Assembly (NCBI GenBank): GCA_049840735.1
Contig: JASGJN010000021.1
Span: 160,001-224,000 of the forward strand
DNA from: Anaeromyxobacter sp.
GTDB lineage: Bacteria; Myxococcota; Myxococcia; Myxococcales; Anaeromyxobacteraceae
Direction of reading: 5' to 3'
DNA length: 64,000 nt
The notes below the pieces were generated by a model. That model made no database searches, was not told the origin of the DNA, and saw only the letters and a list, made by a program, of their open reading frames with translations. Within the stretch, counting starts at the first letter, position 1. Each line of letters opens with the position of its first letter. The position numbers were made by a program, and so were the translations under genes. This document shows positions 1 through 3,168 of this stretch, one piece after another.

Positions 1-38
1 CACAACGCGGTCAGAGCCGCAGAGAGTGGAGACCAGCC

Positions 39-1070
39 GTGGACCATATTGGCATCGACCTGCACAAGAAGGACAGCCAGCTTTGCATCCTGAACGCGGA
101 GGGCGGGGTTCTGGAGGTGCGGATCCCCACCCGGGCCGACCGGTTCGCCGAGGTGCTCGCGAACAGGCCGCGGGCCAAGCTCCTGCTGGAGGCCTCCACG
201 GAAAGCGAATGGGTGGCGCGGCACATCGAATCGCTCGGGCACGAAGTGATCGTGGCCGACCCGAATTACGCGCCGATGTACGGGACGCGGACGAGGCGGG
301 TAAAGACCGATCGGCGAGATGCCCGAGCGCTGGCCGAGGCTTGCCGTTCAGGGACCTACCGAGCGGCCCACCGGAGGTCGGAATCCAGGCGGACGGTCGC
401 TGTCCGCTTGTCGGTGAGAGACACGCTGGTCCGCACCAGGTCGCGGTTCATCACGGTGACCCGGACGTCCTTGCGGAGCCATGGGCTACGGGCCCCGAGC
501 TGTGAAGCCGAGCACTTCGCGCGGGTGGTGTTGGAGATGGCCCTGCCGGACGAGGTCCGCGACGAGGTCGAGCCGTTGCTGCTGATGTTCGACACGCTGA
601 ACGCCCGGATCGCCAAGGCCGACGCTGACCTCGAGGCCATCGCCCGCGACAGCGCAGTGGTACGGAGGCTCACGACGGCGCCAGGCGTGGGCGTCGTGAC
701 GGCCATTGCGTACGACGTCGTCATCGATGATCCCAAGCGCTTCCAGAGTGCCCAGCAGGTGTCCGCCTACTGCGGCCTGGTCCCTAGCGAGCTGAGCTCG
801 GGCGAGAAACAGCGCAAGGGGCGGATCACCAAGACCGGCAACGCCAGGGTGCGCTGGCTTCTCGTCCAGGCCGCGCACTGCGTCTTGCGCAGCAAGAGCG
901 CAGAGTCGCTGCCGCTGCGCGAATGGGCGGGGAAGATCCACCGGCGGAGGGGACGCGCAGTCGCCGTCGTGGCGCTGGCGCGCAAACTCTCCGGAATCCT
1001 GTTCGCGATGATGAGGGACGGGAAGGACTTCGACGGCAGCCGCACCTGCAGGGGAAACGCGATGGCCTAG
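39..1070 (+). CDS. IS110 family transposase/recombinase
   Basis: RuvC-like DEDD motifs IGIDLHK, LEAST, KTDRRDA; C-terminal Tnp domain PGVG...AYCGLVPSELSSG...GRITKTGN...VALARKL. Confidence 0.97.
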   Translation: MDHIGIDLHKKDSQLCILNAEGGVLEVRIPTRADRFAEVLANRPRAKLLLEASTESEWVARHIESLGHEVIVADPNYAPMYGTRTRRVKTDRRDARALAEACRSGTYRAAHRRSESRRTVAVRLSVRDTLVRTRSRFITVTRTSLRSHGLRAPSCEAEHFARVVLEMALPDEVRDEVEPLLLMFDTLNARIAKADADLEAIARDSAVVRRLTTAPGVGVVTAIAYDVVIDDPKRFQSAQQVSAYCGLVPSELSSGEKQRKGRITKTGNARVRWLLVQAAHCVLRSKSAESLPLREWAGKIHRRRGRAVAVVALARKLSGILFAMMRDGKDFDGSRTCRGNAMA

Positions 1071-1134
1071 ACGACCGAAATCGGACCCAGTCGGGCGGAC
1101 GCCGGGCCGGAGATCCGGGAGTGAGGCGAAAGCG

Positions 1135-1295
1135 GGTTTCGAGACAGGGTGAGCGCGAGTTCGGCCTTGGCTGGTCACCAGGAACGGCCGTCGCTCAGAT
1201 GGCGCCCCCTGCTCGAATCCCCCACTGCGCCGGCGGCACTGCCGCCCCTGTCGAGCGCGAATAGAAGGCTGATGGAACTCGCGTTCGCCTGACTC
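1135..1295 (+). ncRNA. Putative bridge/seek RNA of the IS110 element (boundaries approximate)
   Basis: Guides flanking stems: GTTCGGCCT 1159-1167 and CGCTCAG 1192-1198 (target); TCCCCCACT 1218-1226 and ATAGAAG 1261-1267 (donor; the latter equals the IS right end 1374-1380). Confidence 0.8.
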
Positions 1296-1472
1296 CCTGA
1301 CCGATGGCCAACCAGCGCCGCCCAGGCTTCAGGACAAACGACATCACCGGCCCTTGACCGGGGACGCCGCTTCATAGAAGGCCGAACGGGGTTGCTGCAA
1401 CGGCCTGGCCGAGACGGGATGGCGCGGTCAGGCCGAGTGCGTGACGCAGTCAGGCCGAGCAGGCTTCACGGT

Positions 1473-1522
1473 CCGTTCGGGCTGAGCGTAGCGAGCCCGC
1501 AGGGCTCGCGGAGTCGAAGCCC
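1473..1522 (+). repeat. REP-like palindromic repeat
   Basis: CCGTTCGGGCTGAGCGTAGCGAGCCC-GCA-GGGCTCGCGGAGTCGAAGCCC; near-identical copy at 7001-7049. Confidence 0.9.
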
Positions 1523-1549
1523 AGGCTCATCCGCACGCGTCGACTGCGC

Positions 1550-2110
1550 TCACCCCAGCCGCTTCACCATCCGCGCCACCTCGCAGTCGAGGTCGCCCAC
1601 GCGGCACACCTTGCGGTGCACCTCGCTGAACCCGCAGCGCTCCCAGAAGGCGCGGCCGCGGGGGTTCTGGGCCACCACGGCCAGATACAGCGTGGTGAAC
1701 CCCTCGCCGCGCGCCCAGGCCTCGGCGGCGCGGAAGACGCGGTCGCCCAGGCCGGCGCCGCGGACCTCGGGCAGGAGCACCTGGAGCCCGAGGAAGCAGT
1801 CTCGCGGCTCGGGGAAGGCGCGCAGCAGCTCCACCGCGCCCACCAGCCGGCCGTCGGCGCGCCGGACGCCGAACACCGCCTTGTCGGCGGCGCTGCGGCC
1901 GGGCGGCACGTTGCCGAACAGGTCCTCCAGCTGGGCGTCGGAGGGCTCGCGCCCCTCGGACATGCGGACGTAGTCGGCGCAGCCCTGGAAGAGCGCCCGC
2001 AGCTCGGGGCCGTGATCCGGGGTGAGCAGCTCGAAGGCGTGAGCGGGGTCGGGGGGCGCGGGCACTGGGGGCACGGTCGACACGATACCCGGCGGGGAGC
2101 CGGGGAGCAC
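1550..2110 (-). CDS. GNAT family N-acetyltransferase (start may be 2083)
   Basis: VLLPEVRGAGLG acetyl-CoA motif, NPRGRAFWERCGF C-terminal motif. Confidence 0.88.
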   Translation of the reverse strand: MLPGSPPGIVSTVPPVPAPPDPAHAFELLTPDHGPELRALFQGCADYVRMSEGREPSDAQLEDLFGNVPPGRSAADKAVFGVRRADGRLVGAVELLRAFPEPRDCFLGLQVLLPEVRGAGLGDRVFRAAEAWARGEGFTTLYLAVVAQNPRGRAFWERCGFSEVHRKVCRVGDLDCEVARMVKRLG

Positions 2111-2134
2111 GCGGCGCCTGGTCGCCCGTGCGCG

Positions 2135-2143
2135 TGCTACATT
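2135..2143 (+). promoter_or_regulatory. Putative extended -10 element of a leaderless transcript
   Basis: TGCTACATT 6 nt before GTG 2150; no Shine-Dalgarno. Confidence 0.5.
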
Positions 2144-2149
2144 TCAGGC

Positions 2150-2401
2150 GTGGCCACGACAGGCACACCGGGCCGCCCCAGCGGCGAGGAGCTCTCGCGG
2201 GCCATCGACGCCCTGGTGGACGAGTGGCGTGAGCGGTCGCTCTGGTACCTGCGCCGGGACTGGTATCCGCGGACCAGCGCAGAGCAGCGCAGCGCGCTGG
2301 AGGCCATCCAGCGCCGCTCCAATCTCGAGACGTTCAAGCGTGCAGCGAGGCTGATGGCATGGCTCTCACCGGATTCCAGCGCGACGTCTGCCGGGTCCTA
2401 G
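2150..2401 (+). CDS. Small hypothetical protein, probable antitoxin partner of the downstream nucleotidyltransferase
   Basis: 83 aa tail of ORF 1616..2401 from GTG 2150 (SLWYLRRDWYP...); overlaps the next gene by 43 nt. Confidence 0.65.
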   Translation: MATTGTPGRPSGEELSRAIDALVDEWRERSLWYLRRDWYPRTSAEQRSALEAIQRRSNLETFKRAARLMAWLSPDSSATSAGS

Positions 2402-3168
2402 CCGAGCAGCGCCGCCGCGGAGGCGAGAGCTACGTCGCGGGCGGCGGGGCGCTCAACGAGCTGCTGGCTGCCCCTCGCCGGTCGCACGACCTGGACCTGT
2501 TCCATGACACGGCAGCTGCGCTGGCTGGGACCTGGGCGCGCGACCGTGAGGCCCTGCGCGCGGCGGGATACCAGGTCGTGCCGGAGCGGGAGCTGCCGGG
2601 GTTCGTGGTGGCGCGCGTGGCCCTCGGTGGCGACTCAGTGCTGGTCGAGTGGGCCCAGGACAGTGCCTACCGCTTCTTCCCGCTCATCGAGCATGAGCTG
2701 CTGGGCCTGACGCTCCACCCGTTCGACCTGGCCACGAACAAGCTGCTGGCCATCGCCGGCCGCCGCGAAGCACGGGACTGGGTGGATGGCCTGACCTGCA
2801 ACTCGCAGGTGCAGCCGCTGGGGTACCTGGCGTGGGCCGCGGCCGGAAAGGACCCGGGCTACACCCCCTCCGACCTCGTGGAGCGCTGCGCGGCGACCCG
2901 CTACGCCCAGGCTGAGCTCGACGCGCTCGACTTCGACGAGCCGCGGCCTGCTGCGGCCACGTTGTCCCGCAGCTGGCACCAGGCGGTCGAGGACGCGAGG
3001 GCGCTGGTGGTGGCGCTGCCCGGGGAGCAGGCCGGCACCTGCGTCCTGGACCTCGCTGGCAGCCTGCTGCGCGTCGGCCCCGATGAGCTCCGGACGGAGC
3101 TCGCAGCAGGGAAGGTGCGGTTCCACGCTGGTCGGATCCAGGGCGCGTTCCCGGAGCTCCGCCGCTGA
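2359..3168 (+). CDS. AbiEii/AbiGii-like nucleotidyltransferase (type IV toxin-like)
   Basis: YVAGGGAL...RRSHDLDLF and later NKLLAIAGRREARDWVD motifs typical of AbiEii-type NTases. Confidence 0.75.
   Translation: MALTGFQRDVCRVLAEQRRRGGESYVAGGGALNELLAAPRRSHDLDLFHDTAAALAGTWARDREALRAAGYQVVPERELPGFVVARVALGGDSVLVEWAQDSAYRFFPLIEHELLGLTLHPFDLATNKLLAIAGRREARDWVDGLTCNSQVQPLGYLAWAAAGKDPGYTPSDLVERCAATRYAQAELDALDFDEPRPAAATLSRSWHQAVEDARALVVALPGEQAGTCVLDLAGSLLRVGPDELRTELAAGKVRFHAGRIQGAFPELRR

What the first reader, a model, noticed from the sequence alone, without database searches (positions are those of the whole stretch)
1135..1390. Decodable IS110 bridge RNA programmed against the host REP family
Seen: the non-coding region has two guide pairs, each flanking a stem. 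The target loop is GTTCGGCCT (1159-1167), stem TGGCTG/CGGCCG, then CGCTCAG (1192-1198), which together specify GTTCGGC-CT-GAGCG. The donor loop is TCCCCCACT (1218-1226), stem GCGC/GCGC with a GGCGGC/GCCGCC hairpin, then ATAGAAG (1261-1267), identical to the IS right end 1374-1380. The flank starting at the core, AGGCCGAAC (1379-1387), is the exact reverse complement of the left target guide. Established: IS110 bridge/seek RNAs use left/right target and donor guides around a dinucleotide core, and IS621 targets REPs with a CT core. Inference: this is a naturally programmed RNA-guided recombinase aimed at a myxobacterial REP.
Basis: partly seen in the sequence, partly recalled or inferred. Interest (0 to 1): 0.92.

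Follow-up and report, generated by a model that had tools for sequence, protein, structure and literature searches.

The report
IS1111-type jumping gene with bridge RNA
This is a small jumping gene whose own folded guide RNA spells out its landing site in a common repeat of a myxobacterial genome; the mechanism has been known since 2024, so it is a well-supported new example, with one of its four guide segments unusually loose.

Summary
Real, and a new member of a known kind. The window starts inside a 1,427-bp IS1111-group element: intact DEDD recombinase, 10-bp sub-terminal inverted repeats, non-coding right end. All 5 copies in the genome sit at CGCTC-AG-GCCGAAC inside one REP-like palindrome family, so both target guides are confirmed. 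All 5 are in the perfectly matched REP variant, about 30% of sites (p about 0.002). In homologs the left and right target guides, the right donor guide and the target-loop handshake base track their own DNA. The slot it read is the left donor guide position, but it matches 4 of 7 here and was perfect in 0 of 75 homolog clusters, against 22 of 55 for the left target guide. The loose guide is therefore a clade trait. The left end also folds into a conserved leader over the ribosome-binding site. No RNA or activity data. This scan has reported IS1111-type bridge RNAs in other genomes before.

The parts
1..38 (+). Inner part of the element's left end. The whole left end is 87 bp and starts 49 bp before the window (G000:C21:159952; left core AG at C21:159950-159951; left inverted repeat ATGAAGCGGC after 5 nt). 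It folds into a three-helix leader whose outer stem covers the Shine-Dalgarno sequence up to the start codon.
   Evidence: fold z -5.0; 10 of 18 pairs with compensatory changes in 31 homologs
39..1070 (+). IS110-family recombinase, 343 aa; D7, E51, D91, D94 and a serine in the PSELSSG motif (S254 by alignment to IS621/ISCro4)
   Evidence: PF01548 and PF02371; NF033542 249.5 bits, cut-off 140; ISCro4 and IS621 structures E 1e-15 and 9e-13; residues
1138..1286 (+). Predicted bridge/seek RNA, about 150 nt (ends inferred, not measured)
   Evidence: alignment of 46 homologs, consensus fold, pair counts; no Rfam match
1153..1205 (+). Target-binding loop: closing helix GCGC 1153-1156 with 1202-1205; inner helix 1169-1171 with 1187-1189
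   Evidence: helices 1 and 2
1159..1167 (+). Left target guide (7 nt plus core CT), complementary to the right flank 1379-1387
   Evidence: 5 of 5 copies; 4.60 of 7 against 1.99 shuffled, n=30
1192..1200 (+). Right target guide CGCTC-AG (1192-1198) plus handshake dinucleotide AT (1199-1200), equal to the left junction
   Evidence: 5 of 5 copies; RTG 4.47 of 5 against 1.55, n=34; handshake 1.80 of 2 against 1.39, n=35
1217..1226 (+). Left donor guide slot, degenerate (4 of 7 to the true left end)
   Evidence: perfect in 0 of 75 clusters, one mismatch in 8 of 75
1227..1258 (+). Donor-loop scaffold: GCGC 1227-1230 with 1255-1258, hairpin 1232-1246
   Evidence: helices 3 and 4
1261..1269 (+). Right donor guide ATAGA-AG (1261-1267) plus handshake dinucleotide GC (1268-1269), equal to the right junction 1374-1382
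   Evidence: RDG perfect in 53 of 55 clusters (only position 2 is a free test); this handshake matches here but covaries weakly in homologs
1354..1359 (+). -35 box TTGACC of the predicted circle-junction promoter; the -10 at 17 bp spacing is GAAGAT on the circle and GAAGGC when integrated
   Evidence: inferred, not measured
1366..1375 (+). Right sub-terminal inverted repeat GCCGCTTCAT, 3 bp from the core
1379..1387 (+). Right core AG (1379-1380) and right half of the target in the REP-like repeat

Best explanation
An autonomous IS1111-group insertion sequence that moves by RNA-guided recombination. Shown by sequence: element limits, target, guides, covariation. Inferred from IS621 and IS1111 work: the ends join at the AG/CT core into a circle; the junction completes a promoter that transcribes the recombinase and the downstream RNA; the target loop pairs with both strands of the 14-nt site in the 3' arm of the host REP palindrome and selects the variant with GC next to the core; the donor loop holds the circle junction firmly through the right donor guide and loosely through a mismatched left donor guide, with the 10-bp inverted repeats probably adding protein-read specificity; both handshake dinucleotides pair only after strand exchange, which favours insertion. 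A leader stem over the ribosome-binding site probably keeps the recombinase low.
For: 5 of 5 copies share both junctions. All 5 lie in the GC variant, 98 of 327 REP sites counting the five occupied ones, p=0.0024 if variants were used at random. At 80% aa clusters LTG, RTG and RDG position 2 reach 0 of 5000 shuffles; the target-loop handshake too. In disjoint homolog pairs own beats swapped partner 20:0 (LTG, 25 pairs), 22:2 (RTG, 34), 17:0 (RDG, 18), 22:1 (handshake, 24). An unbiased column scan put its top hits on the expected guide columns for both flanks, the right end and left-end position 1. Scaffold: 7 of 16 pairs with two-sided changes, 97.6% of cells paired. Catalytic residues present.
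Against: No transcript, RNP or circle was seen; the circle-junction 14-mer is absent from the assembly. The left donor guide matches 4 of 7, whereas IS621 tolerates LD-LDG mismatches poorly (PMC11208160, passage). The donor-loop handshake does not covary convincingly (145 of 5000 shuffles at 80%; 3:1 with 21 ties). The single-sequence MFE does not give the two open loops. 62 of 195 loci did not fit my scaffold pattern and were left out, and the pattern fixed several scaffold bases, so invariant pairs are partly circular. 2 of 5 copies are frameshifted.
Confidence: 0.88

Rival explanations
1. seekRNA-type action: only the target loop guides by base pairing; the ends are read by the protein through the inverted repeats, and the donor loop is structural or vestigial.
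For: Left donor slot perfect in 0 of 75 clusters. Siddiquee et al. found short 70-100 nt target-only RNAs sufficient for ISEc11 (PMC11187229, Discussion). In CazIS110-1 a TBL-only RNA is 90% of bound RNA (bioRxiv 2025.10.25.684509, passages).
Against: RDG position 2 tracks the right end through three states (T, C, G) in 29 of 30 clusters against 0.34 expected; the donor-loop helices keep compensatory changes; the left slot still beats shuffles (3.86 against 3.43, 2 of 5000; 15:4 in pairs). In CazIS110-1 circle formation and integration needed the full RNA.
Confidence: 0.15
2. Fully IS621-like four-guide pairing: the left donor guide pairs well in a bulged or shifted register, or lies elsewhere in the RNA, and my ungapped test misses it.
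For: A gapped score is above shuffles (5.42 against 4.67, 0 of 1000, n=42). Some homologs reach 6 of 7 (8 of 75). Alternative donor segments within loops are reported (bioRxiv 2026.08.14.744561, one passage).
Against: The gapped 9-mer score never came within one point of perfect in 75 clusters. The unbiased scan found no run of columns tracking left-end positions 2-5. The GATGGAA stretch at 1271-1277, which resembles the left end here, gave no consistent signal over 7 offsets in 42 homologs.
Confidence: 0.2
3. The guide matches are chance or relics of captured flank DNA, and the protein chooses the REP by its hairpin.
For: Every insertion site lies next to a REP hairpin; a target stem-loop boosts ISPpu10 insertion (bioRxiv 2026.03.19.712850, section 8).
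Against: Guides change with unrelated targets across homologs; the hairpin is shared by all REP variants, yet only the guide-matched variant is occupied. In ISPpu10 the hairpin could not replace base pairing.
Confidence: 0.03

Closest known systems
IS1111-group seekRNA elements ISEc11, ISPa11, ISKpn4, ISPst6 (Siddiquee et al. 2024, PMC11187229; passages, section 9 and Discussion read)
   Same: Sub-terminal inverted repeats with 7 bp and 3 bp extensions, long non-coding region downstream of the gene, top-strand match 5' of bottom-strand match, about 340-aa protein; ISPa11 also targets a REP.
   Different: Different host and target; that paper reports target matches only, while here the right donor guide also covaries with the end. 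Sequence similarity to those four proteins was not tested.
IS621 and ISCro4 bridge recombinases (Durrant et al. 2024, PMC11208160; Hiraizumi et al. 2024, PMC11208158; passages read)
   Same: Two internal loops, CT core, 7+2+5 target, handshake dinucleotides next to the right guides, REP target (IS621).
   Different: RNA in the right end, 10-bp inverted repeats, distant protein (E 1e-15 to 9e-13), left donor guide mismatched; both handshakes here are naturally in the post-exchange state, which in IS621 needed one engineered change.
ISPpu9 and ISPpu10 of Pseudomonas putida (PMC8450116, abstract; bioRxiv 2026.03.19.712850, abstract and section 8)
   Same: IS110-family elements in palindromic repeats; ISPpu9 has a 5' leader structure that covers the ribosome-binding site; ISPpu10 uses a target-side stem-loop.
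   Different: No antisense RNA was looked for here; the leader is short (82 nt from the inverted repeat); homology of the leaders was not tested.

Membership tests
IS110 family recombinase | N-terminal DEDD RuvC domain plus Transposase_20 domain with catalytic serine | tested here: met
IS1111 group | Sub-terminal inverted repeats of 7-17 bp with 7-bp left and 3-bp right extensions | tested here: met
   10-bp perfect repeats; AG plus 5 nt on the left, 3 nt on the right, in 5 of 5 copies; definition
IS1111 group | Long non-coding region downstream of the gene, short left end | tested here: met
   left end 87 bp, right end about 308 bp
IS1111 group | Top-strand target match lies 5' of the bottom-strand match in the RNA | tested here: met
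   1159-1167 pairs with the + strand flank; 1192-1198 equals the + strand; rule
IS1111 group | Transposase falls in the IS1111 clade of ISfinder references | not tested
   no reference set was at hand; no tree with named IS1111 proteins was built
Bridge RNA system | Target loop with left and right guides that covary with the target | tested here: met
Bridge RNA system | Right donor guide that covaries with the element end | tested here: met
   29 of 30 at the one freely tested position
Bridge RNA system | Left donor guide complementary to the left donor | tested here: inconclusive
   4 of 7 here; perfect in 0 of 75; weak excess over shuffles
Bridge RNA system | Handshake dinucleotides complementary to the non-cognate DNA | tested here: inconclusive
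   both match in this element; target-loop one covaries, donor-loop one barely
Bridge RNA system | RNA is expressed, binds the protein and is required for recombination | not testable with these tools
   needs RNA-seq, RNP purification and a recombination assay
REP element (target) | High-copy extragenic palindrome with covarying arms | tested here: met
   322 full-pattern sites; the 5' arm changes with the 3' arm across variants; extragenic position seen in examples only
REP element (target) | Cognate RAYT gene flanked by the repeat | tested here: not met
   none of 6 Y1_Tnp loci carried the target motif within about 1.5 kb; the assembly is 94% complete

The most novel reading that the evidence does not exclude
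This clade (myxobacterial, Gemmatimonadota, Acidobacteriota, Rokubacteria relatives) uses a functionally three-guide bridge RNA: the left donor guide has decayed, and the left end is recognised by the inverted repeat plus the target-loop handshake. It would be a natural intermediate between the bridge model (RNA reads both ends) and the seekRNA model (protein reads the ends), and would make that disagreement directly testable. Searches listed no paper devoted to donor-loop pairing in IS1111-group elements; figures and subscription papers were not visible.
Probability: 0.35. Interest if true: 0.55.

Novelty: new member of a known kind. Interest (0 to 1): 0.3.

Why it matters
As a member it is one more compact, probably recently mobile bridge recombinase, with a verified natural target and about 100 perfect empty sites in a high-GC host that lacks many genetic tools. 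Two points go a little beyond that. Occupancy of only the guide-matched REP variant shows two-base discrimination next to the core in nature. The clade-wide loose left donor guide bears on an open question: how IS1111-group elements recognise their ends, which decides whether their cargo ends can be reprogrammed.

Tried and rejected
1) TGGGGG left end: rejected, 0 of 5 copies. 2) GATGGAA at 1271-1277 as a displaced left donor guide: no consistent covariation over 7 offsets, n=42; in homologs this tail looks like scaffold. 3) A 3'-anchored register for the left donor slot: weaker than the 5' register at 80% and null at 70% clusters. 4) Rfam: no match in window 1-2200; one chance hit far below gathering score at the left junction. 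6) Non-autonomous copies or a tandem circle junction in the assembly: only the 5 left and 5 right ends were found. 7) RAYT link for the REP: not found at 6 Y1_Tnp loci. 8) Prior description of the REP or element: PMC3733652 has no occurrence of Anaeromyx, delta, IS110, Geobacter or Sorangium in its main text; one search listed no paper on it; the Durrant supplements held no 'Anaeromyxobacter' or 'Myxococc', but three files were cut when stored and one PDF was unreadable. ISfinder could not be searched, so a named relative may exist. bioRxiv supplements were not visible and may hold IS1111 donor-loop analyses.

Full report
Element. Window 39-1070 encodes a 343-aa IS110-family recombinase (PF01548, PF02371; NF033542 above cut-off) with D7, E51, D91, D94 and the serine motif at 249-255; its nearest solved structures are ISCro4 and IS621. 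The window is G000:C21:160001-224000. The genome holds 5 full copies at 97.9-99.3% identity. The element is 1,427 bp without the core and begins 49 bp before the window. The ORF is full length in 3 of 5 copies and frameshifted in 2 (assembly indels are not excluded). Ends carry a perfect 10-bp inverted repeat, 7 bp in from the left (counting the core) and 3 bp in from the right. That is the IS1111 layout (PMC11187229, passages; PMC11208160, passages).

All 5 copies read TACGCTC-AG then ATGGAAT on the left, and ATAGA-AG then GCCGAACGG on the right. The target half of the prediction is exact. The donor half is not: there is no TGGGGG. Read on the strand used for IS621, the left donor is ATTCCAT, and the slot at 1217-1223 matches it at 4 of 7. 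These are the positions of the handshake guides, in the state that favours strand exchange in IS621 (PMC11208158, passages).

Target. The 14-nt site occurs 101 times empty, against 0.14 expected. It is the 3' arm of a palindrome of about 55 bp with a variable central hairpin. Of 322 full-pattern sites, the two bases after the core are GG 107, GC 93, CC 69, GA 45, other 8, and the 5' arm changes in step. All 5 insertions are in the GC variant; random use would give 0.0024. The repeat motif is present in 19 of 37 genomes of the genus, 344 matches in G000 and at most 43 in any other. The host is probably myxobacterial. No RAYT link was found.

Homologs. 195 loci were examined: 5 own, 80 from genome contigs (best 80 of 147), 30 from the class search (includes the window copy again) and 80 from metagenomes (best 80 of 513). 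A scaffold pattern with free guide positions parsed 133; 62 did not parse (truncated contigs, broken or distant elements). At 80% aa clusters (38, one element each, those with the needed end): LTG 4.60 of 7 against 1.99 shuffled (n=30), RTG 4.47 of 5 against 1.55 (n=34), RDG position 2 0.97 against 0.34 (n=30), target-loop handshake 1.80 of 2 against 1.39 (n=35), each 0 of 5000; donor-loop handshake 1.07 against 0.88 (145 of 5000); left donor slot 3.86 of 7 against 3.43 (2 of 5000). At 70% clusters LTG, RTG and RDG stay at 0 of 5000, both handshakes lose significance (396 and 358 of 5000) and the left slot gives 33 of 5000. My patterns fixed the AG and most of the right end, so only RDG position 2 is a free test. 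At 95% clusters with best register: LTG perfect in 22 of 55, RTG 36 of 73, RDG 53 of 55, left donor slot 0 of 75 (8 of 75 with one mismatch, 2% in shuffles). Own against swapped partner in disjoint pairs: 20:0, 22:2, 17:0, 22:1 for LTG, RTG, RDG and target-loop handshake; 3:1 with 21 ties for the donor-loop handshake; 15:4 for the left slot. Many pairs for the last three cross one clade split, so they are not independent events.

RNA structure. On 46 hand-picked parsed homologs (38 cluster representatives plus 8) RNAalifold gives two internal loops that hold exactly the four guide slots. 7 of 16 pairs change on both sides, 97.6% of cells pair, and slid controls give 21-60%. The structure came from the same alignment and the rows were chosen by scaffold motifs, so invariant pairs prove little. 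The single sequence folds no better than shuffles and pairs the two target guides together, so protein binding would have to open the loop.

Expression signals. A TTGACC box at 1354 is followed at 17 bp by GAAGAT only on the predicted circle. Of 53 distinct homologs with both ends, 50 have a TTGAC-like box near the right end, at 19 (27), 14 (12), 20 (10) or 23 (1) bases from the core. The left end forms a three-helix leader whose outer stem covers the ribosome-binding site (z -5.0; 41 of 48 left ends pair 5' with 3'; 10 of 18 pairs with two-sided changes in 31 rows picked from those). ISPpu9 is a precedent for such repression (PMC8450116, abstract).

Verdict. It works like a bridge recombinase and meets every IS1111-group feature that I tested; placement in a reference tree was not tested. 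Right-end bridge RNAs were predicted for 93% of catalogued IS1111 elements, with donor guides often in atypical loops (PMC11208160), and this scan has reported such elements in other genomes. It is a new member of a known kind. The residue of interest is the clade-wide loose left donor guide. All mechanism steps beyond sequence covariation are inferred from other elements.

Noticed in passing
G000:C21:159957-160038 (window up to 38): Conserved three-helix leader in the left end that buries the Shine-Dalgarno sequence; compensatory changes across homologs of 37-67% protein identity; no Rfam family.
   Followed up: partly
L006:1-1367: Closest homolog (67% aa) has the same left junction, but its left target guide ends TC and its donor-loop handshake is GA (GC and GC here): a coordinated retarget to a site with GA after the core. 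Its right end is not on the contig.
   Followed up: partly
L043-L047, L049, L050, L053-L058, L073 (OZ252227.1): A relative has 14 fetched copies; 13 share one site whose flank, read by eye on the reverse strand, looks like a Ser/Thr kinase coding motif, so this IS may target a multigene family rather than a repeat. L058 is the exception.
   Followed up: no
L037, L040, L043, L064, L070, L082 right ends: Vicinamibacterales relatives have right ends of about 390-420 bp with a second conserved block downstream of the bridge RNA; role unknown.
   Followed up: no
L020, L031, L067, L075 left flanks: Gemmatimonadota relatives sit next to CTAAC-containing flanks that resemble attC ends (recalled resemblance), and their left target guide register is shifted by 2 nt.
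   Followed up: no
window 1475, 7002, 11014, 14525, 14700, 19799, 22303, 23669, 25110: Nine empty REP sites in the window; only 19799 is the perfectly matched variant.
   Followed up: partly
G000:C4:42300-43730 and G000:C26:118180-119615: Two copies are frameshifted by small insertions; the other copies could move them in trans.
   Followed up: partly
window 2359-3168 +: 269-aa ORF with a small upstream ORF; no Pfam or NCBIfam match at E 0.001.
   Followed up: no
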